A stretch of DNA of 64,000 bases from an uncultured Acidobacteriota bacterium. GTDB taxonomy: Bacteria > Acidobacteriota > Terriglobia > Versatilivoradales > Versatilivoraceae. Shown piece after piece: positions 54,305 to 64,000 of the stretch. The DNA lies in the NCBI GenBank assembly GCA_963803155.1, contig CAWDMN010000059.1, forward strand, positions 300,636 through 364,635. Direction: 5' to 3'. A model generated the notes under the pieces. That model saw nothing but the letters and a program-made list of their open reading frames with translations. It made no database searches and was not told the origin of the DNA. A program made the translations under genes and the position numbers. Numbering within the stretch: position 1 is the first letter of the stretch; the number at the start of each line of letters is the position of its first letter.

Positions 54305-55416
54305 GGGTCAGACCTTAATTGTTGTTAATTGAGTTTCATTGTAATTGTCCGGATCTGATTAACTTGCATGTTTTTTCGAGAAGCCGCCCTCGCGCAGGGT
54401 CGGTCTTGACTTCATTGGCCAGTATCTTCAAATGCCGGCTTACTGCCGCGCTACTGGCCAGCCCTAGCTGCCGGGCCACCTCCCGCTCGCTCAGCCCGCC
54501 CATTTCCACCAGCAGTTTCATAGCCAGCCGCCGTCCCGGATGTCGCGAATGCAAGCGCCTGAGTTCTTCGACCTCCATCCCACAGACCTGGCTGACGGCC
54601 TTCAGGATCACCGACGAATCGATTCCCACCTCCGTTCGCCTCATTCGAATCTCTTCGGGTGCCTGGAATTGACCAAGTCTCTGTTCTTGTTCCTCCTCTG
54701 CCCATTGGCAAAAGGTCCGATCGCCGATTGCCTTCGTCGAGTGCCCCATCACTTCCGCCAGCTCTTCATCCTTCCTGGCAATTCCGCTCTCGACAAACTC
54801 CCGATAAGCCCGGGCGCGGTCCTTTTTCCCTTCTCCCAGCCAGGCTGTCAGTGGCCCGTAATCCACAAAGGCTTCCTTCTGCTTTACCCCTGCATAGCCG
54901 CCGTAACTGCTCCAGCGATATTGCCGCAGCAGGCCAATCTTTTGTTTAATCGGCCATCCCCGCATGCGCTTAATCTTGACGGGATTCAAATGGACGTATC
55001 GGGTCAATTGCAGCAAGTAGCGGCTCTCCTCCACCAGTCGGGATTTATACCTTCCCTCCAATAAATGTCCATGCCGCTGGTGGCGCCGATTAAAGTAGAC
55101 CGTATAGGCGGTGCTGAAGTGCTGCATAAACCGGCTCAAGTTGGCCCGCGGGGTCTCCACCAGCAGATGCAGATGATTGCTCATGAACACGTAGGCATAG
55201 AGACGCACCTGGTAGCGCTCCAAGCTGGCCGCGAGCTTCTGCTGCATCACCTCCCGGTCGGAGTCATCGTGGAAGAGTTCCTTGCGCTCCTGACCCCGCG
55301 TAGTGACATGATAGATCGCCCCCGGATAAAGAATTCTAATCGATCGCGCCATATGCCAATATTACCCTGAGTTTGCTTTATGATTCAACATAATAGCAAC
55401 TATTAAGGTCTGACCC
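54305..55416 (-). mobile_element. compact IS carrying a Y1 HUH (IS200-like) transposase, bounded by 20-bp inverted repeats GGGTCAGACCTTAATWGTTG
   Basis: Left end 54305-54324 (gggtcagaccttaattgttg). Right end 55397-55416 (the reverse complement is gggtcagaccttaatagttg). 19/20 match. Confidence 0.6.
54336..55352 (-). CDS. IS200-like Y1 (HUH) transposase with C-terminal DnaA-C-like HTH extension (COG1943 long form)
   Basis: HUH motif SNHLHLLVE. The catalytic Tyr region is EGRYKS. The C-terminal 150 aa carry a helix-turn-helix (RQLGLASSAAVSRHLK). Confidence 0.75.
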   Translation of the reverse strand: MARSIRILYPGAIYHVTTRGQERKELFHDDSDREVMQQKLAASLERYQVRLYAYVFMSNHLHLLVETPRANLSRFMQHFSTAYTVYFNRRHQRHGHLLEGRYKSRLVEESRYLLQLTRYVHLNPVKIKRMRGWPIKQKIGLLRQYRWSSYGGYAGVKQKEAFVDYGPLTAWLGEGKKDRARAYREFVESGIARKDEELAEVMGHSTKAIGDRTFCQWAEEEQEQRLGQFQAPEEIRMRRTEVGIDSSVILKAVSQVCGMEVEELRRLHSRHPGRRLAMKLLVEMGGLSEREVARQLGLASSAAVSRHLKILANEVKTDPARGRLLEKTCKLIRSGQLQ

Positions 55417-56391: not shown

Positions 56392-56545
56392 CCTGCAATG
56401 CTGTAAAGTCGATCCGAGACCGAAACTAATCTCAAACCAATCATAAAAGGGAAAGTCCTAAACTTAGTTGAAAAAGGAGCATGACCTCACTTAAAACAGA
56501 GGTGTTTTACCGGCAAGTAAGACACTGAGATTAAGGAGATCATGC

Positions 56546-57299
56546 ATGGGACAGAGAGTAATTGGAGCCGGAAAAAGAAGCAAGGGCAAAGAGAGAAGAA
56601 AAAAGAGACAACAAATCCAAGAAGAAGTTAGGACTTTGGACAGTCGGTTTGAACTGATCCAGATGTTGATCCCTCTAGGCTTGAAAGCAGTGGAAGAAGA
56701 ATTACAGAAAGAGGTGGAACAGCTGGTTGGCCGCGGAGCCAGCCGGAGTCCGGAGAATCGACGCTGGGGAAGAAATCCAGGATCAGTCTACCTGGGAGAT
56801 CAGAAAGTCAGAGTCGAAGTGCCGCGAGTACGAAATGTAGCGGTGCGCCAAGAAGTGCCTCTGGAGAGTTATCAAGCTTTTCGAAAGACGAAGGTGTTGG
56901 ACCATCAGGTCCTGAATCGACTGATCTGTGGGATCAGCCAGAGGCAATATGAACAGGCGGCTCTCTGTGTGCCCGAGACGTTTGGGATCAAAAAGAGCAG
57001 TGTGTCGCGACACTTCATTCGAACCACGGCTCGGAAGTTGGAAACTTTTTTGAATCGGGATTTGAGCCAGCACGATCTTGTGGCGATCTTTATCGATGGG
57101 AAGCGGTTAGCAGAAACCGATATGATCGTGGCTTTGGGGATTACGCTCGAGGGTAAAAAGATCCTATTGGGATTTGTAGAAGCCAGCACAGAAAATCAAC
57201 GAGTGGCTCAGGATTTTATCCAGCGACTGCTGGATCGAGGGTTAAGAACCGAACAGGAGATTCTCTTCATTATCGACGGAGTCAAAGGGCTGTATAAAG
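56546..57299 (+). pseudogene. IS256-family (mutator-type) transposase, N-terminal fragment, interrupted by IS66
   Basis: ...HDLVAIFIDGKRL...ILFIIDGVKGLYKG is typical IS256 DDE region 1. The frame continues at 59823 (IKASLAEKALIQRCQWHKRENV, IS256 region 2). Confidence 0.75.
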
Positions 57300-57345
57300 G
57301 TAAGCGTCCATTTATCCCCACCTTGTGATTACGGGGGGACAGGGA

Positions 57346-58965
57346 TTATGATGACTGGTTTTGTGAAGAACGGCGGACCGGTTTGAGATCAACATTCCAG
57401 GGCAACAGTGGATCCAGATTTTGATTATCTCTGAGCGGCAGGTTGGGCAATTTCTCAAATAAAAGGAATAGATAAGCATAAGGATCCAGGTTGTTTTCTT
57501 TGGCGGTTTCGATAAGGCTGTAGATGATGGCACTTGATTTCGCCCCCTTGGGGGTGTTACTGAACAGCCAGTTTTTCCTTCCAATGACGAAGGGTTTGAT
57601 GGATCGTTCCGCCCGGTTGTTGGACAGTTCCAACCGGCCATCCTCCAGGAAACGGATCAGCTTCGGCCATTGCTGACGACAATAATTCACGGCCACGCCC
57701 AAAAGGCTTTTAGGTAAAACGACCAGAGCTTGTTCATCCAACCACCGGCGAAACTGATCCAACACCGGCCGGCTTTTCTCTTGCCGTGATTTCAAACGCT
57801 CTTCCGGAGTGCTCTCTTTCAGTCCCCGCTCCATGTCAAAGAGCCGATTAATCTGATCCAAGCCCGCCTGGGCCTGGCTGCCGTTCTTGCGATACTTGGC
57901 CGGCAATCCTTTCAGAGCTTCATCGAATTTTCTTCGAGCATGCGCCCAACACCCCACCAAAGTGACCTGGGGCAGGTCATGATATCCCGCATAGCCATCC
58001 ACCTGCAGATATCCCTGGAATCCTTTTAAGAATTCTTTGGGATGATCTCCAGCACGGCTTTGCTGATAATCATAGAGGACCATAGCGGGTCCTTCTCTTC
58101 CGGTCCGATACAACCACATGTACGATTGGCTCTCCGCCTCTCGTCCCGGTTCCTTCAGCACTTGGACCGTTGTCTCATCCGCATGGAGAATATCCCGCTC
58201 GAGCAACTTTTGCCTCAAACGAAGATAGAGCAACTCCAGCCATTCACTTCCCTTGATCATCCAGTTTGAAAGAACCGATCGGGACAGTTCGATGCCCATC
58301 CGCTGATAATGTTGTTCTTGCCGGTACAAGGGCACCCCTTCCACAAACTTCATCGTCATCACATAAGCCACCGACGAAGCCGAAGCCAGACCTTTTTCAA
58401 TCACCGGTTTGGGTGCCACCGCCGTTTTAATGGGTACTTCGATCCCATTCTTCTCGCAGTTCCGGCAGCTGTAGACAAAACGGACGTGCTGTAAGATTTT
58501 TACCTGCGCCGGAATCAGCTGCACTTCATGACGGGTCTCTTCACTCATTTCGTGCATCCGGCCGCCACAACAGGAACAGACCTGCTCCTCTTCCGCCAGC
58601 CGGTACTCGATGCGCTCCATCGGAAGGTCTTGCGGAATGGGCCGCCGCCCGGGCTTTCTTTTCCGTTCATAGCTGATGGTAATCTTGTCTTCGGCGAGAG
58701 CCGGAGCGGCTTCATCGACTGCTTCCGCCTCATTGAACAGGCTGGGTTGTTCCGGCACGCTGCGTTCACTCGATGGGCCATACTGTTTGGCTCGCGCCAA
58801 GTGAAACTGCTCCTCAAACCAGCGCAGCTTTTCCTCCAGCTGTTCGATTTTTGTGGCCTGTTGATTCAACTGAGCAACCAGTTCTTCGCGAGTTTCCAGG
58901 GGCTTTGGCAAGACCGTTGACATGCCTGCTATTATACGGATTTGCCCTTCTTTTTTCAAGTACAA
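57346..58965 (-). CDS. tnpC: IS66-family transposase TnpC (DDE, zinc-finger)
   Basis: N-terminal leucine zipper. Zinc-finger CSCCGGRMH...CRNC. The DDE core region matches IS66 Orf3. Confidence 0.9.
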   Translation of the reverse strand: MYLKKEGQIRIIAGMSTVLPKPLETREELVAQLNQQATKIEQLEEKLRWFEEQFHLARAKQYGPSSERSVPEQPSLFNEAEAVDEAAPALAEDKITISYERKRKPGRRPIPQDLPMERIEYRLAEEEQVCSCCGGRMHEMSEETRHEVQLIPAQVKILQHVRFVYSCRNCEKNGIEVPIKTAVAPKPVIEKGLASASSVAYVMTMKFVEGVPLYRQEQHYQRMGIELSRSVLSNWMIKGSEWLELLYLRLRQKLLERDILHADETTVQVLKEPGREAESQSYMWLYRTGREGPAMVLYDYQQSRAGDHPKEFLKGFQGYLQVDGYAGYHDLPQVTLVGCWAHARRKFDEALKGLPAKYRKNGSQAQAGLDQINRLFDMERGLKESTPEERLKSRQEKSRPVLDQFRRWLDEQALVVLPKSLLGVAVNYCRQQWPKLIRFLEDGRLELSNNRAERSIKPFVIGRKNWLFSNTPKGAKSSAIIYSLIETAKENNLDPYAYLFLLFEKLPNLPLRDNQNLDPLLPWNVDLKPVRRSSQNQSS

Positions 58966-59058
58966 AATTCCCTGAAACCCTCATATTTACTGGTATCTTA
59001 ACCGTTTTTGCCGTAACTTTTTCAGCCGGCCAAACTGGCTGTCCAATCTTTGCACAAC

Positions 59059-59412
59059 TCAGATCACCACCCGAGCCGCCACCGCCCGATGAGCTTGCCG
59101 CTGCTCCACACTCAATCCATCCAACAACCACTGCAATTGCCGCCGCCTGATGGCCAAGGGCTCCTCACCTCCCGACGGCCACTGGAATCGCCCCCGTTCT
59201 AATCGCCGGTAATAAAGCCAGAACCCATTATGTTCCCAACGAAGAATCTTCAACTTGTCCCGCTGCCGGTTGCAGAAAACAAACCACTGCTCCGAAAAAG
59301 GGTCCAATTGAAATACTCCACTGACCAGAGCCGCCAATCCATCGATCGATTTGCGAAGGTCAGTCGCCCCGGGTGCCAGATGAATCGGACTTACTGGCAC
59401 CTGGCTCAACAT
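59059..59412 (-). CDS. tnpB: IS66 Orf2 (TnpB)
   Basis: The 117-aa protein PIHLAPGATDLRKSIDGLAALV...RDKLKILRWEHNGFWLYYRRLERGRFQWP matches the IS66 Orf2 family. Confidence 0.85.
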   Translation of the reverse strand: MLSQVPVSPIHLAPGATDLRKSIDGLAALVSGVFQLDPFSEQWFVFCNRQRDKLKILRWEHNGFWLYYRRLERGRFQWPSGGEEPLAIRRRQLQWLLDGLSVEQRQAHRAVAARVVI

Positions 59413-59735
59413 GCCGCACCCACCACCTCCAGCACCTCGGCCAGCAGTTGCCGGTCAAATCCCCTCTCTACCTCCACAATCACTCGCCCAATCCTCAGGC
59501 GAATTCCAGTGTCCCGATTTGACGGATCTTCCTCGCACAATTGCAAGGGTATCCAGCCCATTCGTTTTTTCTCGAGGGATCGAATCGCCTGCTTTTTTAA
59601 TTTCCGTTGCCAATAACCCAACCGATGAATGGGGATCTGATGCTGCTGACAATATTCCCTTCGGCTTACTCCACTTTCTTGATATCCTCGGACTTGCTGC
59701 TGCCAATACTCTATGATCTCTGCTGTCGCCTTCAT
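59406..59735 (-). CDS. tnpA: IS66 Orf1 (TnpA, HTH)
   Basis: 109 aa, SGVSRREYCQQHQIPIHRLGYWQRKL. It overlaps tnpB by 7 nt, the typical IS66 arrangement. Confidence 0.8.
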   Translation of the reverse strand: MKATAEIIEYWQQQVRGYQESGVSRREYCQQHQIPIHRLGYWQRKLKKQAIRSLEKKRMGWIPLQLCEEDPSNRDTGIRLRIGRVIVEVERGFDRQLLAEVLEVVGAAC

Positions 59736-59822
59736 GATGGACTTTGCCTCCCTATTGTATTTTCGGAAGCATTATCCTCGGCAATGGTTTTTATTGGAAG
59801 GTGGGGATAAATGGACGCTTAC

Positions 59823-60339
59823 GTATAAAGGGATCAAGGCGAGCCTGGCGGAGAAAGCCTTGATTCAAAGATGCCAATGGCACAAGCGGGAAAATGTAGT
59901 CAGTTATTTGAGCCGGGAACAAGCAAAACGATTCCGGCAGAAAATGCAGACGGCTTATCAGCAACCCAGTTATGAAAAGGCGAAAGAAGCCCTGGAGCGA
60001 ATTGCTAAAGAGCTGCGATTGATCAATGGTTCTGCGGTGGAGAGCCTGAAAGAAGGGTTAGAAGAGACTCTGACTCTGCATCGTTTGGGATTGTTTGAAG
60101 AATTAGGCACCAGTTTTAAAACCACCAATTGCATTGAGAATGTGAATCGGCAATTGGAGCGGTTGACGCATCGAGTCAGTTACTGGAAGAACAGCGATCA
60201 GCGCCAGCGTTGGATAGCCACGTCGCTCCTGCAAATTGAGCCCGGGCTAAGAAAGGTGAAAGGCTTTCGTCATCTAAAAGCCCTTCGCAAAGCCATGAAA
60301 AAGGAAAGTCATCCAAAATCGGATCAAGCAGCCGCTTGA
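59823..60339 (+). pseudogene. IS256-family transposase, C-terminal fragment
   Basis: Contains the conserved IQRCQWHKRENV motif. It is in frame with 56546-57299 once the IS66 and one duplication copy are removed. Confidence 0.75.
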
Positions 60340-60498
60340 GGCTTATGCTCATTTTCAACTAAAAAAGGGCTTGACCCTCATAAAATCCTGCTGGGACTAG
60401 ACGGAGATATCGTGAGTTTGTACCTTTGCAAATCTGGCACCATCCTCCTGCGGCCAGCACGCTGGTGAATGTGTTCAATATGCACATGGTTCTATGAA

Positions 60499-60541
60499 GT
60501 CCAACACGGCGGCACACTGGCCAGCGTGCTTTTCGCGCTGG
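60499..60541. repeat. hairpin-containing ~43-bp motif (family R5), copy 1, about 105 nt 3' of the helicase gene
   Basis: gtccaacacggcggcacactggccagcgtgcttttcgcgctgg is similar to 62114-62164. Confidence 0.55.
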
Positions 60542-60646
60542 GGAATTTCCTGATCAGGTGAAGTAAGCTTGCTGGGAGTCATTTTTCAGAATACCTAAAT
60601 TCTAAGGGCCAGCACTGTTCCGCCTTTGCAGCGATCAAATCAACTG

Positions 60647-62107
60647 TCATGGTTGGACTTTGTTTTCGTTGTGCAAAGGCCTCAAACGTCCGTAGAAATC
60701 CAGAATTGTGCCGTCGGCCTTTACGTCGATCATGGAAATTGGACGGTCAAGGCTGATCCCTTCCATTGTTCTGCAGCGCGATAAAGCAACGTAGGTTTGC
60801 CCCGAGCAGAACGCACCTTGCCCTAAGTCGATTCTTACTGAGTCGAGCGTCATGCCTTGCGACTTATGAATTGTTATGGCCCATCCAAGTGTAATTGGAA
60901 ATTGCGTAAATGAGCCGACGACATTACTGATGATCCGCTTCTCGATGCGGTCATACTCATACTTAATCTTCTCCCACGTCACCCGTTCTACACTTACAGT
61001 GTTCCCTGTATTCTGGATTTCTATTCGTAGTTTATCGTTCTCGATGTTAATGACCCTTCCAAGGGTTCCATTAAGCCAATACGGTTTATTGTTCTTTACG
61101 AATAAGATCTGCGCTCCTTCTTTAAGTTCTAATCGATGCGGAGCCTGGAATCGATCTCTCTGCACGTCAAACTCTCCTTCAATGATCGCGTCAAACTTCC
61201 AGAGTGGGGCCTCCAGGGCGTTCAAATTCTGAGTATTGATCGATTTGGCGGCGGCATTGGTTGGAACGAGGAACAATGAGGGATTGGCGCTCGGTTTGCG
61301 GTCTCGGAAGCAATCGCGGTTGATCCGCGCCACGGCCTCACGGTGGTCATTGTTAAGTCTGATGCGATCAAGCAGGTCAACGAACTCTTGATTTGTCTGG
61401 CGAAACACTTTGGTCAGTTCAATAGAGATCACTTTCGCTTGGCCGAAAATATCGGCAGAGAAAAAGTGGGAAGACCGATACCTATCCGTGTAATATTGTG
61501 CGACTTCTGGATCTCTGACCACAGGCGGCAACTGGAGAAGATCCCCCACGAATATCACCGGAACCCCACCAAATGGGCGCGGATCCCTTCGAACTTTCTT
61601 GAGCGTGTTGCTCATACAATCGACTAAGTCGGGAGGGACCATCGATATTTCATCGACTACGAGTGCGCCGAGACATTCGATGACGGGAACGATCTGTCGC
61701 CTTGGCTCGAACGCCTCATCGGGATTCAGTGTTCGTGGAGGGATGTTAAAAAACGAGTGGATTGTTGATCCGTGAACATTGATCGCTGCAAGTGCAGTCG
61801 GTGCCACAACGGCACAATTTGCGATCTTTTCGGAAAGGAACCGGATAAGTGTGGACTTTCCGGTCCCCGCGCGTCCCGTTACAAAAATAGCGGGACATCC
61901 GCCCTCAATCGCTTCTAAGACAAATTGGTATTCTGGCAGAACTACAATCGTATCCGTGTCCTGCTTTGTAGCGGACGAAATACGCTTCGGATTCGTTCGC
62001 TGGGTCGGTGCAAGTTCGCGGTCGATCTTCGACAGATCAACCGGCGTTTGTGCATCCACGCCGAGCAAGCGTTTTGCCAGATTGCTTATACCAGACCAGA
62101 CACTCAT
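60647..62107 (-). CDS. SF1B Pif1/RecD-like DNA helicase (compact, 486 aa)
   Basis: Walker A VTGRAGTGKST. Motif II LVVDEISMV (DExx without the UvrD-type DEFQD). Motif III VIFVGDLLQLPPV (Pif1-type GDxxQLPPV). Motif V ITIHKSQGMTLD. Motif VI TYVALSRCRT. Confidence 0.75.
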   Translation of the reverse strand: MSVWSGISNLAKRLLGVDAQTPVDLSKIDRELAPTQRTNPKRISSATKQDTDTIVVLPEYQFVLEAIEGGCPAIFVTGRAGTGKSTLIRFLSEKIANCAVVAPTALAAINVHGSTIHSFFNIPPRTLNPDEAFEPRRQIVPVIECLGALVVDEISMVPPDLVDCMSNTLKKVRRDPRPFGGVPVIFVGDLLQLPPVVRDPEVAQYYTDRYRSSHFFSADIFGQAKVISIELTKVFRQTNQEFVDLLDRIRLNNDHREAVARINRDCFRDRKPSANPSLFLVPTNAAAKSINTQNLNALEAPLWKFDAIIEGEFDVQRDRFQAPHRLELKEGAQILFVKNNKPYWLNGTLGRVINIENDKLRIEIQNTGNTVSVERVTWEKIKYEYDRIEKRIISNVVGSFTQFPITLGWAITIHKSQGMTLDSVRIDLGQGAFCSGQTYVALSRCRTMEGISLDRPISMIDVKADGTILDFYGRLRPLHNENKVQP

Positions 62108-62113
62108 TTATTA

Positions 62114-62164
62114 GTCCAACACTGCTGCTCCCCTGACCAGCGCACTTTCCGCGCTGGTCAGGGG
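62114..62164. repeat. R5 copy 2: perfect 11-bp stem / 7-nt loop (ctgaccagcgc-actttcc-gcgctggtcag) between the OLD-family gene stop and the helicase start
   Basis: Read directly. It shares gtccaacac-gc-gc...ccagcg..cttt.cgcgctgg with 60499-60541. Confidence 0.6.
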
Positions 62165-62190
62165 AAGCAAGCTTGTTCGCATTTCATTCG

Positions 62191-64000
62191 TTACGAGTCA
62201 TAAAGCCTTCGGATTTCCTGCAACCATCCTCGGACATCACCTTGTGGATCCACAGCTGTAAGCAGTGTAGGAGTCATTGCAGACGCTGCCTCCGAATTAA
62301 GGCGTCTTTTTGTGCGACTGACCTTCTTTCGCTTCTTCTCTTCTTCAAGGTTATTCCAAGGATCGCACCCACCCCCAATATCGTGGATGTTTTGAGCGAC
62401 GATATCAGGAACATCATCGAAGTCGGTATAAGTGACATTGACTCCAATAGCTGAGTTGATAGCGTCAGGGTGAAGGTAGTTCTCCATTTCGCGTTTGCCT
62501 GTAAGTAATGCTCGGCCTCCTCGAGCGTTGATGGAATCAACAGCGCTCTGGTGTGAAGAGACTTTAGGAGGCAGATCGTCGCGATCGTAGAGATGAAATT
62601 CAGGTCGATTGAGACCGGCGAGCCTGTGAGTCCAAAGCGTGAGGTTTGAACCTCCTACGGGAATGAACACGAGTCGCCCCTGGCTTTCTAGTCCGCGCAA
62701 GTCAAGAACATCTTCCCCTGCTGCTCGTAGTACATCTGAAATATTGCAGAGGAAATCAATGTCGTTGACACCCTCAACGCCGATGAAAAGCCGAACATCG
62801 TGGTCGGCAATAACACCAAGAGAGGAAGCGATGTTACGATATGTGTCGGCTGCATTCTGATGAACGACCCGCCCGCCTGTTCCTTCTGTCGTAACATGCT
62901 TAAGGGCGCTAAGCGGAAGGTCTCGCACCAACAATGGGGTGTGTGTAGTGAAAATTACCTGACATCCGGGTTGCTCACTGAGATCGCGCAATGCTGTCAG
63001 AAGTAACCGCTGGTTCCTTGGGTGCTGGCTGGTTTCTGGCTCCTCGATTGCGTATATGACTCCGGGTGCTTCAGCAGTGGCTAAACGCTTCTCTGCTCTG
63101 GCTCTAAAGAAGTTCAGAAGTATTAGTCGTCGAACACCGCTACCTCGTTTGTTTATTGGTATCTGGAAGTCGTCCGTCAAGCTGATACCAAATACCTTCG
63201 CCCAGTTCGGCTTCGAGAAACGTGGATTCAGTTCTTGCGCAAGTGTCGGATCCATCTCACGAAGCTTCTCGACTGTTGCCCGTGCAATTCCGAGGACTTG
63301 ATCGCGAACAAATGTGGTCAGAGTCTCGAGTGCAACTTCCTGAATCTGCAGTGCTTCGTCAACAGCTGTCTTAAGAGGATCTTGGGCTTCTTCGTCTTGG
63401 TCGGTGCTCTTACGATCAGAGTGAAAAATAGCGAAAAGTGGGAGTTGCTTGGAAAGCGCCCCCCATATCTTCTTCGCGTCCTCCTTCTCGATGTCAATCT
63501 CCTGCTCGCGAGGATGAAGGGCTGGTGCTGAGCACCATATTGCTTGGCGGAGTTCTGAATTGACTCGTTGATCCACCTGACTGATGTCGACACCGAGTTG
63601 CTCTGCGCGATTCTTTAGGTCTCTGTTCTTCAAATATAGTAGGTCAGAGTATTTCTCCGCAGTAGGATGACTGGCGAAAATGAATGTGCGTGTGAGTTTT
63701 GGTTTCTGAAGTTCTCCATTGAAAACGCGGTGAATCTCCAAATTCCCTTGTCCATTGAGCAGCCATTCATCTGCAGGAGATACCTTGTGGTCAGTGTCGA
63801 TCAGGATGCTTTTGGGGAGATCGGAGAATTCACACATTATGGTCATATCGGCTTTGTTGCCAGTAATACTTCCATCGTCAGAATCTGGCATATACTCGCC
63901 GAAGAACATTGCGAGCGCATCCAATATTGCGGATTTGCCTGAATCATTACGCCCGATAAGCGCTGTAAGCGCTTCAAGGTTAATAGCTGTTTCCGCTTGA
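62191..64000 (-). CDS. OLD-family ATP-dependent endonuclease (N-terminal ABC-type ATPase + C-terminal TOPRIM), 5' end beyond window edge
   Basis: The frame stays open to position 64000 and reads ..QAETAINLEALTALIGRNDSGKSAILDALAMFF (Walker A of OLD/AAA_15-21 ATPases). The TOPRIM block is RLFIGVEGVNDIDFL...HLYDRDD. It has the same orientation as the helicase and sits 83 bp upstream of it. Confidence 0.7.
   Translation of the reverse strand, partial: QAETAINLEALTALIGRNDSGKSAILDALAMFFGEYMPDSDDGSITGNKADMTIMCEFSDLPKSILIDTDHKVSPADEWLLNGQGNLEIHRVFNGELQKPKLTRTFIFASHPTAEKYSDLLYLKNRDLKNRAEQLGVDISQVDQRVNSELRQAIWCSAPALHPREQEIDIEKEDAKKIWGALSKQLPLFAIFHSDRKSTDQDEEAQDPLKTAVDEALQIQEVALETLTTFVRDQVLGIARATVEKLREMDPTLAQELNPRFSKPNWAKVFGISLTDDFQIPINKRGSGVRRLILLNFFRARAEKRLATAEAPGVIYAIEEPETSQHPRNQRLLLTALRDLSEQPGCQVIFTTHTPLLVRDLPLSALKHVTTEGTGGRVVHQNAADTYRNIASSLGVIADHDVRLFIGVEGVNDIDFLCNISDVLRAAGEDVLDLRGLESQGRLVFIPVGGSNLTLWTHRLAGLNRPEFHLYDRDDLPPKVSSHQSAVDSINARGGRALLTGKREMENYLHPDAINSAIGVNVTYTDFDDVPDIVAQNIHDIGGGCDPWNNLEEEKKRKKVSRTKRRLNSEAASAMTPTLLTAVDPQGDVRGWLQEIRRLYDS

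What the first reader, a model, noticed from the sequence alone, without database searches (positions are those of the whole stretch)
60647..64000. OLD-family ATPase/TOPRIM nuclease paired with a Pif1/RecD-like SF1B helicase: a Gabija-like but non-canonical candidate defence module next to nested IS elements
Seen in the sequence: two co-oriented minus-strand genes 83 bp apart. The upstream gene has an N-terminal P-loop (LIGRNDSGKSAIL) and a C-terminal TOPRIM (FIGVEGVNDIDFL ... YDRDD), which defines the OLD family. The downstream gene has SF1B motifs (GTGKST, DEISM, GDLLQLPPV, HKSQG, YVALSR). Established knowledge: OLD-family nucleases occur alone (P2 Old), with UvrD-like SF1A helicases (class 2 = Gabija GajA/GajB), or in retron and PARIS contexts. 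Here the partner helicase has Pif1-type motif III and lacks the UvrD DEFQD box. Inference: this is a Gabija-like variant, or a separate OLD-plus-SF1B system, and it has landed in a mobile-element-rich island (IS256, IS66, Y1 transposase and HicAB all lie within 25 kb). The left part of the system is cut by the window edge, so further partner genes may exist upstream.
Basis: partly seen in the sequence, partly recalled or inferred. Interest (0 to 1): 0.8.

Follow-up and report, generated by a model that had tools for sequence, protein, structure and literature searches.

The report
Solitary OLD nuclease beside unrelated Pif1 helicase
The two genes are real, an OLD-family ATPase/TOPRIM nuclease and a textbook bacterial Pif1 helicase, but they sit side by side only in this genome, so they look like two independent genes rather than a new Gabija-like defence system.

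Summary
On the minus strand, a 486-aa gene (60647-62107) lies 83 bp downstream of a 616-aa gene (62191 to about 64041; 14 codons lie beyond the window). All quoted motifs are present.

The helicase is a canonical bacterial Pif1 (E 3.8e-92 to solved bacterial Pif1 structures across the whole core).

The proposed two-gene system is not supported. Profile searches found no Pif1 relative in 100 other loci encoding relatives of the nuclease, and no OLD relative in 165 loci encoding Pif1 relatives. The closest relatives examined (72-81% identity, eleven distinct contexts) also lacked the partner. Neighbours of the nuclease vary and often include restriction-modification or mobile genes. It is also a solitary gene on the two plasmids inspected, out of 358 plasmid records carrying a homolog. 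Neighbours of Pif1 are mostly housekeeping genes.

Best reading: a stand-alone OLD nuclease (Class 1 by genomic context), probably a single-gene defence, next to an independently acquired Pif1. Both lie in an accessory segment that abuts a nested IS256/IS66 insertion. Interest is low.

The parts
62191..64000 (-). OLD-family nuclease gene. It is 616 aa in full. Codons 15-616 plus the stop lie in the window, and the start would be at about 64041.
   Evidence: Translation. Full length from the identical contig L001. AAA_15 at 8.6e-65. Foldseek on the full model is led by TsOLD 6p74 (2.3e-16), followed by GajA and the retron Eco8 OLD.
62857..64000 (-). ABC-type ATPase region, residues 15-395 in the window. 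It has Walker A GRNDSGKS, Walker-B-like YAIEEPE and H-loop H367.
   Evidence: Pfam AAA_15, AAA_21, AAA_23 and SMC_N. G30, K36, S37, E333, E334, E336 and H367 are invariant in 95 homologs. The ATPase motifs align to TsOLD, GajA and PtuA.
62194..62856 (-). TOPRIM domain followed by a roughly 75-aa helical bundle (residues 396-616). Candidate metal ligands are E423, D427, D486(-x-D488) and E518-x-E520.
62108..62190 (-). 83-bp spacer holding copy A of a palindromic element. It has a perfect 15-bp stem at 62129-62165, no T-run, and ends in GTGTTGGACT.
   Evidence: Sequence. Inverted repeat I12. DNA fold -26.5 kcal/mol, z -8.4. Aligns to copy B.
60647..62107 (-). Bacterial Pif1-family SF1B helicase gene, 486 aa.
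   Evidence: Pfam PIF1 at 4.6e-28. phmmer against PDB: bacterial Pif1 8bnv/8bns at 3.8e-92, Bacteroides Pif1 5fhd at 8e-78, Thermus Pif1 6s3e at 5e-73, over residues 59-476.
60490..60600 (-). Copy B of the same element. It is degenerate, has a 12-nt insertion, and also ends in GTGTTGGACT.
   Evidence: Pairwise alignment. nhmmer finds only these two copies in the window and none in the 89 loci other than L001 (which carries the same two copies) held when the search was run. The fold is no better than shuffles.
60359..60517 (-). Short ORF (42-52 aa) with no family match. It is followed by the only canonical terminator-like hairpin plus T-run downstream of the two genes (60365-60379).
   Evidence: ORF list. 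No Pfam hit. Terminator scan.
56458..60358 (+). IS256-family element with terminal inverted repeats TTAGTTGAAAA / TTTTCAACTAA. It is interrupted by an IS66-family element at about 57300-59822 and forms the downstream boundary of the segment.
   Evidence: Sequences. IS66 inverted repeats, I1. Transposase_mut split at profile position 239/241, plus DDE_Tnp_IS66 and TnpB_IS66. Contig L001 breaks inside the IS256 end.

Best explanation
These are two independent single-gene units that happen to be neighbours in an accessory, IS-bordered stretch of a chromosome.

Gene 1 is a stand-alone OLD-family nuclease, Class 1 in the context-based classification. An N-terminal ABC ATPase, probably dimerising and sensing or regulating, is fused to a C-terminal TOPRIM nuclease. 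By analogy with TsOLD, BpOLD, P2 Old and Vc OLD, this nuclease would nick or degrade DNA by two-metal catalysis. Its most likely role is single-gene defence against phage or other foreign DNA.

Gene 2 is an ordinary bacterial Pif1 5'-3' DNA helicase. Its family is spread independently through chromosomes and phage genomes.

The two do not form a conserved Gabija-like module. The adjacency is most simply explained by separate acquisition. The Pif1 gene is bracketed by two diverged copies of a 70-85-nt palindromic element, which fits its insertion downstream of the OLD gene.

Shown here: the folds, the motifs, the conservation, the lack of co-occurrence and the gene contexts. Inferred: nuclease activity, a defence role, and separate acquisition.
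For: 1. Identity of the two proteins.
2. No co-occurrence. Pif1 was found in 0 of 84 genomic/metagenomic OLD-like loci, 72 of which have at least 1.6 kb downstream. OLD-like was found in 0 of 85 Pif1 loci, 49 of which have at least 2.5 kb upstream. Family profile HMMs at E<=1e-3 gave the same result, as did 16 and 80 viral loci.
3. Closest relatives:
- OLD-like genes at 72-79% identity are followed by a NERD/Fic/HsdM fragment, HsdM-HsdS, a 104-aa ORF, unrelated short ORFs (L003), or no called gene.
- Pif1 genes at 74-81% identity are preceded by an unannotated 484-aa gene in a region that also holds an integrase and Mu-like transposition genes, an ABC-F ATPase, small unannotated genes in a block that includes a HicA toxin, a cut ORF and a 636-bp gap (L090), an unknown 441-aa gene, or T5orf172.
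4. The OLD-like family has no conserved neighbour in 69 upstream and 69 downstream ORFs. What recurs is DNA methylase families and restriction components, plus NERD, nSTAND3, RT, integrases and IS elements.
5. 358 plasmid records (292 conjugative) carry a homolog. It is a solitary gene in the two records inspected.
6. Upstream neighbours of Pif1 are heterogeneous and mostly housekeeping.
7. The literature defines Class 1 as single-gene OLDs, and a bacterial Class 1 OLD (Vc OLD) gives phage defence on its own (PMC7049728, PMC10568477, PMC12392090).
8. The two repeat copies flank Pif1.
Against: - The genes are co-oriented and only 83 bp apart. The spacer hairpin has no T-run, and the only canonical terminator-like site lies after the short ORF downstream of Pif1. 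Co-transcription in this organism is therefore possible.
- Absence of the pairing elsewhere does not prove absence of functional interplay here.
- The sampled Pif1 loci from the metagenome and viral scans are mostly 31-53% identical. The test on close relatives rests on only eleven distinct contexts.
- The region upstream of the OLD gene is unknown, so a third gene cannot be excluded.
- No activity was measured.
- The C-terminal helical bundle and the 616-aa length resemble Class 2 (GajA-type) proteins more than TsOLD does.
Confidence: 0.8

Rival explanations
1. A lineage-specific two-gene module. In this organism the OLD nuclease and the Pif1 helicase are co-transcribed and act together. That would make it an independently evolved analogue of Gabija in which an SF1B helicase replaces the SF1A GajB.
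Against: The pairing was seen in 0 of 100 OLD-like loci and 0 of 165 Pif1 loci, including the closest relatives of both genes. The only other instance, L001, is the identical sequence. A strong 15-bp-stem hairpin and a repeat boundary separate the two genes. Pif1 has no Shine-Dalgarno sequence, whereas OLD has AGGAGG.
Confidence: 0.08
2. An ordinary or variant Gabija system (Class 2 OLD GajA plus GajB).
For: PADLOC GajA profiles hit the protein weakly (best 8.3e-18, mostly the distal ATPase; one profile spans 270-568). GajA structures are among the top fold matches.
Against: The downstream helicase is Pif1, not UvrD/PcrA/Rep (no UvrD family among the Pfam hits). Among the 69 upstream and 69 downstream neighbours of homologs, the tabulated Pfam families (top 25 of 53 and of 60) include only one UvrD_C hit. 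The PADLOC 'Old' profile scores better than any GajA profile.
Confidence: 0.02
3. A cassette model. The Pif1 gene, and perhaps the OLD gene too, is a site-specifically inserted cassette bounded by attC-like imperfect palindromes ending in GTTRRRY. The locus would then be a short integron-like array (CALIN) later hit by IS256. This is compatible with the best explanation and would account for the adjacency.
For: There are two homologous 70-85-nt elements, one at the 3' end of each gene. Both end in GTGTTGGACT. Copy A folds into a long stem with single-base bulges on one arm (-26.5 kcal/mol, z -8.4). The next start codons lie 10-14 nt after the GTT.
Against: There are only two copies in 64 kb, and none in the 89 loci other than L001 (which carries the same two copies) held when the search was run. 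The putative R'' box (TGCGAAC) fits RYYYAAC poorly. Copy B does not fold better than shuffles. No integrase appeared among the 37 window ORFs scanned with Pfam, but that scan was not exhaustive. Relatives of the OLD gene carry unrelated hairpins at the same place, which fits plain 3'-end hairpins. No attC covariance model was available.
Confidence: 0.1

Closest known systems
Class 1 OLD family nucleases (P2 Old, Thermus scotoductus OLD PDB 6P74, Vibrio cholerae Vc OLD)
   Same: [quoted passage not shown] It is a solitary gene with no conserved partner. The acidic metal-ligand pattern E-x3-D ... DxD ... ExE is present. TsOLD is the best hit for the full-length model (Foldseek 2.3e-16) and by sequence (phmmer 5.6e-13, profile 9.6e-19). 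The family occurs in bacteria, one archaeal MAG, prophage-like viral contigs and plasmids.
   Different: It is 616 aa, against 528 for TsOLD and 586 for P2 Old. A four-helix bundle is predicted after the TOPRIM core, which TsOLD lacks. Sequence similarity to TsOLD is confined to the ATPase motifs. Contrary to the older statement that Class 1 genes are not near other defence genes, homologs here often sit beside restriction-modification genes.
Gabija (Class 2 OLD GajA plus UvrD-like GajB)
   Different: The helicase is SF1B Pif1, not SF1A UvrD/PcrA/Rep. The pairing is not conserved in any relative. GajA profiles match only weakly.
Bacterial Pif1 helicases (Bacteroides BaPif1 5FHD, Thermus oshimai Pif1 6S3E, and the bacterial chains 8BNS/8BNV, deposited as 'AAA family ATPase' / 'AAA ATPase')
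   Same: Full-core homology (E 3.8e-92 to 5e-73). All SF1B motifs and the Pif1 signature stretch (...VRRDPRPFGGVPVIFVGDLLQLPPV) are present. The size is similar.
   Different: A roughly 55-aa N-terminal extension is conserved only among close relatives. Nothing else is unusual.
PARIS (Class 4: AriA ATPase plus AriB TOPRIM)
   Different: In this protein the ATPase and TOPRIM are fused in one polypeptide. The AriA profile covers only the generic AAA_15 ATPase (residues 4-358). No separate AriB-like gene is present.

Membership tests
OLD family nucleases | N-terminal ABC-type ATPase with a Walker A lysine plus Walker B and H-loop equivalents | tested here: met
   AAA_15 at 8.6e-65. GRNDSGKS, YAIEEPE and H367 are invariant in 95 homologs. 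These motifs align to TsOLD K34, E276 and H310.
OLD family nucleases | C-terminal TOPRIM fold | tested here: met
OLD family nucleases | Conserved acidic residues for two-metal catalysis (TsOLD E377/D431/D433 and D381/S478/E480) | tested here: inconclusive
   E423, D427, D486 and E520 are invariant and E518 is at least 90% conserved. D488 of the DxD is below 90%. The pattern and spacing match the published residues, but no residue-level superposition was made.
OLD family nucleases | ATP hydrolysis and metal-dependent DNA nicking or cleavage | not testable with these tools
   This needs purified protein.
Class 1 OLD (single-gene) | The gene occurs alone, without a conserved neighbouring partner | tested here: met
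   No family recurs in more than 6 of 69 upstream or 5 of 69 downstream neighbours. The gene is solitary on the two plasmids inspected. No helicase partner was found in 100 loci.
Class 1 OLD (single-gene) | Shorter than Class 2 and lacking the C-terminal helical domain (as in TsOLD) | tested here: not met
   The protein is 616 aa, and helices 544-615 follow the TOPRIM core in both models. This is a tendency of the class, not its definition.
Gabija / Class 2 OLD | [quoted passage not shown] | tested here: not met
   The downstream helicase matches Pif1 structures at 3.8e-92. Pfam gives PIF1 and no UvrD family. No PADLOC GajB hit.
Gabija / Class 2 OLD | The nuclease-helicase pairing is conserved across homologs | tested here: not met
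   0 of 100 OLD-like loci and 0 of 165 Pif1 loci show the pairing.
Retron-associated OLD (Class 3) | Adjacent reverse transcriptase and retron ncRNA | tested here: inconclusive
   No RT gene lies between the OLD gene and the IS256 element, and no Rfam family matches anywhere in the window. The upstream side lies beyond the window. Only 1 of 69 downstream neighbours of homologs has an RT domain.
PARIS (Class 4) | ATPase (AriA) and TOPRIM (AriB) encoded as separate adjacent genes | tested here: not met
   Both domains lie in one 616-aa ORF. The AriA profile hit covers only residues 4-358.
Pif1 family helicases (SF1B) | SF1 motifs I-VI plus the Pif1 signature motif, with homology across the whole helicase core | tested here: met
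   GTGKST, DEISM, GDLLQLPPV, HKSQG and YVALSR, plus the stretch RRDPRPFGG. Residues 59-476 align to bacterial Pif1 structures.
Pif1 family helicases (SF1B) | 2B SH3-like domain | tested here: inconclusive
   Pfam Pif1_2B_dom scores 21.2 bits (E 2.4e-4), below the 23.9-bit cut-off. The region is covered by the alignment to solved Pif1 chains.
Integron cassette / attC site | Imperfect palindrome bounded by R'' (RYYYAAC) and R' (GTTRRRY), with extrahelical bases, in an array near intI | tested here: inconclusive
   R' GTTGGAC is present in both copies. Copy A folds with bulged bases. R'' is a poor fit, copy B does not fold, there are only two copies, and no integrase was seen among the ORFs scanned. 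No attC model was available.

The most novel reading that the evidence does not exclude
In this lineage the solitary OLD nuclease has recruited a Pif1 helicase into one transcription unit. This would be a recent, independent origin of a Gabija-like nuclease-plus-helicase defence, built with an SF1B helicase instead of an SF1A one. A variant of this reading is that both genes are integron-type cassettes bounded by attC-like sites, which would make the locus a defence-gene cassette array.
Probability: 0.07. Interest if true: 0.6.

Novelty: new member of a known kind. Interest (0 to 1): 0.2.

Why it matters
If the pairing had been real, it would have defined a fifth genomic class of OLD systems and a first defence role for bacterial Pif1. 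The evidence points the other way, so the main value is corrective. Adjacency of an OLD gene and an SF1 helicase in a single genome is not enough to call a Gabija-like system.

A smaller practical point also emerges. This is a large, cross-phylum clade of stand-alone OLD nucleases, with more than 560 matches across the species-representative genome collection (185,579 species) and homologs on 358 plasmid records, including conjugative enterobacterial plasmids. Annotation labels it only as 'AAA family ATPase' or 'ATP-binding protein', because its TOPRIM domain escapes Pfam and NCBIfam. Defence-system catalogues probably under-count it. It would be a reasonable candidate for testing whether single-gene OLDs defend broadly.

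Tried and rejected
- **Recovering sequence beyond 64000.** Exact-protein look-ups returned only a 3.8-kb identical contig (L001), and the 459-kb source contig could not be read. Only 121 bp upstream of the OLD start is therefore known. One frame there stays open from the contig's first base and stops 20 nt before the OLD ATG, with an internal ATG that would give a 26-aa ORF. It does not resemble the upstream gene of the closest relative.
- **Sequence detection of the TOPRIM.** Pfam gave nothing on the C-terminal 221 aa even at E<=10. A 95-sequence profile against PDB sequences matched ATPase motifs only. The question was settled by structure instead.
- **A conserved partner for the OLD-like family.** An early guess was that the gene is embedded in type I R-M operons, based on 400-450-aa upstream ORFs. 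This is only partly true. R-M components recur but none is conserved, and DUF2130 is the commonest upstream neighbour at 6 of 69.
- **A conserved partner for Pif1.** None was found. The 441-aa and 484-aa upstream genes of two close relatives are unrelated to each other and to OLD.
- **Repeat family.** My first exact pattern for the hairpin was mis-registered and found nothing; the corrected pattern found the two copies. An nhmmer model found no further copies in the window, and none in the 89 loci other than L001 held at that time. A REP-like or long attC-array reading is therefore unsupported.
- **Names and accessions for the source proteins.** None are on record.
- **Rfam and tRNA scans of the window.** Both were empty.
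- **Literature search for OLD plus Pif1 plus anti-phage.** No papers were found.


Full report
**Observation**

The region holds two co-oriented minus-strand genes. One ORF spans 60647-62107 (486 aa, ATG start). A second reading frame stays open from 62191 to the window edge, giving 602 codons. The spacer between them is 83 bp.

A public 3814-bp contig with the identical sequence (L001) completes the upstream gene. It is 616 aa and starts MKLQRVRIRNFRCY, and an AGGAGG site precedes the start codon. Only 14 codons therefore lie outside the window. The 459-kb contig that also carries both proteins could not be read, so only 121 bp upstream of the gene is known.

**What the helicase is**

Pfam gives PIF1 at 4.6e-28, and no UvrD family is among its listed hits. 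Against solved structures, residues 59-476 align end to end with bacterial Pif1 helicases:
- 8bnv/8bns at 3.8e-92
- Bacteroides Pif1 5fhd at 8e-78
- Thermus oshimai Pif1 6s3e at 5e-73
- yeast and human PIF1 at lower scores

The SF1B motifs and the Pif1 signature stretch (VRRDPRPFGGVPVIFVGDLLQLPPV) are intact. The protein is an ordinary member of the family with a short N-terminal extension.

**What the upstream protein is**

The N-terminal 360 residues are an AAA_15 ABC ATPase (8.6e-65). PADLOC's best hit is a generic AriA/AAA_15 profile. Next come 'Old' (4.4e-22) and weak GajA profiles. No NCBIfam model reaches its cut-off.

Neither Pfam nor a 95-sequence profile searched against PDB sequences recognises the C-terminal 220 residues. 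I therefore modelled the protein.
- The full-length AlphaFold model (pLDDT 84) is matched best by Thermus scotoductus OLD (Foldseek 2.3e-16, 578 aligned columns). GajA and the retron Eco8 OLD follow.

In 95 homologs, E423, D427, D486 and E520 are invariant and E518 is nearly so. This reproduces the E-x3-D/E, DxD, x-E arrangement of the metal A and B ligands described for TsOLD and BpOLD (PMC7049728). The OLD-family assignment is therefore confirmed by fold. The catalytic mapping is inferred from pattern, not from superposition.

A four-helix bundle follows the TOPRIM core. TsOLD lacks such a domain and Class 2 proteins have one.

**Is the pair a system?**

I tested this by asking whether the adjacency recurs.
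- A scan of one genome per species found more than 562 loci encoding relatives of the nuclease, spread across many bacterial phyla and one archaeal MAG. 80 of these were fetched. tblastn with the helicase found it in none of them, even at E<=10.
- Adding four loci for the closest relatives gives 84 loci, 72 of which have at least 1.6 kb downstream. All were negative.
- In the other direction, 85 loci encoding Pif1 relatives (49 with at least 2.5 kb upstream) contain no OLD-like gene.
- Family profile HMMs at E<=1e-3 gave the same result. So did 16 viral contigs with the nuclease and 80 with Pif1.

The closest relatives matter most. OLD-like genes at 72-79% identity are followed by:
- a NERD gene, a Fic gene and an HsdM fragment
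- HsdM plus HsdS
- a 104-aa ORF
- unrelated short ORFs of 184 and 200 aa (L003)
- no called gene

Pif1 genes at 74-81% identity are preceded by:
- an unannotated 484-aa gene, in a region that also carries an integrase and Mu-like transposition genes
- an ABC-F ATPase in a housekeeping neighbourhood
- small unannotated genes in a block that includes a HicA toxin
- a cut 247-aa ORF followed by a 636-bp gap (L090)
- an unknown 441-aa gene
- a T5orf172 gene

. The only other instance of the pair, L001, is the same sequence.

**Context of each family**

The immediate neighbours of the nuclease share no conserved family. The commonest are DUF2130 (6 of 69 upstream) and N6_N4 DNA methylases (5 of 69 downstream). 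Other DNA methylase families (MmeI, N6_Mtase, Eco57I) recur downstream. Restriction components, NERD, nSTAND3, a reverse transcriptase, integrases and IS elements also appear.

The family also occurs on 358 plasmid records, 292 of them conjugative. It is a solitary gene in the two records inspected: an E. coli IncF plasmid, where it lies between parAB and the sil operon, and a Salipiger plasmid, where it lies next to a DUF262 gene.

This is the pattern of a horizontally mobile single-gene unit that keeps company with defence genes. It matches the context-based definition of Class 1 OLD nucleases. A bacterial Class 1 OLD has been shown to defend on its own (PMC10568477, PMC12392090).

The upstream neighbours of Pif1 are heterogeneous and mostly housekeeping (aconitase, IPP transferase, an arginyl-tRNA synthetase and others). 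Pif1 relatives are also abundant in large phage contigs.

**Local anatomy**

The window is a chromosome. It carries mreB-mreC-PBP2-rodA and RNase E/G at 43.9-52.9 kb, with metabolic genes before them. From about 54 kb come a Y1 transposase-like gene and a TonB-like gene. Next is an IS256-family element (56458-60358, terminal repeats TTAGTTGAAAA) that is itself split by an IS66-family element (about 57300-59822). Contig L001 breaks exactly inside the IS256 end.

Between that IS and Pif1 lie a short ORF of unknown function and the only canonical terminator-like site in the segment (60365-60379).

The 83-bp spacer contains a perfect 15-bp stem with no T-run. With its flanks it folds at -26.5 kcal/mol (z -8.4). 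A diverged copy of the same 70-85-nt element, with a 12-nt insertion, lies just after Pif1. Both copies end in GTGTTGGACT. There are no further copies in the window, and none in the 89 loci other than L001 (which carries the same two copies) that had been fetched when the nhmmer search ran.

So Pif1 is bracketed by direct repeats. This fits its insertion behind a pre-existing OLD gene. An attC-like reading is possible, given the GTTRRRY end, the bulged stem and the short leader to the next start codon. It is weak, however: the R'' box fits poorly, copy B does not fold, no integrase was seen among the ORFs scanned, and the OLD relatives carry unrelated hairpins at the same place.

**Conclusion**

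The genes and their domain calls are right. It is also right that this is not canonical Gabija. The proposed OLD-plus-SF1B module is not supported, because the two families are distributed independently and the adjacency is unique to this sequence.

The best-supported reading (confidence about 0.8) is a stand-alone OLD nuclease, probably a single-gene defence acting by ATP-regulated two-metal TOPRIM cleavage, next to an independently acquired ordinary Pif1 helicase in an IS-bordered accessory segment.

A lineage-specific functional coupling cannot be excluded, because co-transcription is possible and the upstream flank is unknown. I put it near 0.08.

The finding is a new member of known kinds and of low interest. 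There is a minor annotation point: this large OLD clade is labelled only as an AAA ATPase, because its TOPRIM domain is missed by sequence profiles.

Noticed in passing
window 62108-62190 and 60490-60600 (minus strand): Two diverged copies of a 70-85-nt palindromic element bracket the Pif1 gene, one at the 3' end of each gene. Both end in GTGTTGGACT (GTTRRRY-like). Copy A folds at -26.5 kcal/mol (z -8.4) with single-base bulges on one arm, and copy B is degenerate. The element could be attC-like, an att-site remnant, or a local repeat.
   Followed up: partly
window 56458-60358: An IS256-family element with imperfect terminal inverted repeats starting TTAGTTGAAAA. Its transposase is split at Pfam profile position 239/241 by an IS66-family element (about 57300-59822, inverted repeats GTAAGCGTCCATTTATCCCCACC). 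No clear 8-bp target duplication was seen for the IS256 copy. The independent contig L001 ends inside the IS256 terminus.
   Followed up: partly
window 62194-62856 (OLD residues 396-616); plasmid loci L267, L268: The TOPRIM domain of this OLD clade is missed by Pfam and NCBIfam. Homologs on 358 plasmid records (292 conjugative, many of them Escherichia, Salmonella and Enterobacter plasmids) are annotated only as 'AAA family ATPase' or 'ATP-binding protein'. This is likely an annotation and defence-catalogue gap.
   Followed up: partly
L001 3-101 (beyond the window, upstream of the OLD start): A co-oriented reading frame is open from the contig's first base and stops 20 nt before the OLD ATG (...TLTSKMENDIVRIIQKHFGEKLLGPTFAVGP*). 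It could be the end of an upstream gene or a 26-aa ORF. It is unlike the upstream gene of the closest OLD relative.
   Followed up: partly
window 60359-60517 and 60365-60379 (minus strand): A short ORF (42-52 aa, no family match) is followed by a canonical hairpin plus T-run. It lies directly against the IS256 right end and is the only terminator-like site downstream of the OLD and Pif1 genes.
   Followed up: no
window 54336-55352 (minus strand): A 338-aa protein with an N-terminal Y1_Tnp (IS200-like) domain (7.7e-14), about twice the usual length of such transposases. Its C-terminal half has no match. I did not check whether it is a REP-associated (RAYT-type) transposase.
   Followed up: no
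loci L002-L089 (neighbours of OLD-like homologs): DUF2130 is the commonest upstream neighbour (6 of 69). DNA methylase families (N6_N4_Mtase, MmeI, N6_Mtase, Eco57I) recur downstream, and a 72%-identical relative is followed by HsdM-HsdS. This contrasts with the published statement that Class 1 OLD genes are not found near other defence genes.
   Followed up: partly
L270-L272 (262-1587) and L273-L274 (250-798): Close Pif1 relatives (74-78% identity) have tightly coupled but mutually unrelated upstream genes. One is an unknown 441-aa protein at a 13-nt gap. The other is a 182-aa T5orf172-like protein overlapping by 4 nt. This suggests that this Pif1 clade moves between different small operons.
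   Followed up: partly
viral loci L187-L266: More than 550 viral contigs, many of 90-150 kb, encode Pif1 relatives at 31-40% identity. This clade of helicases is therefore shared extensively between bacteria and large phages.
   Followed up: no
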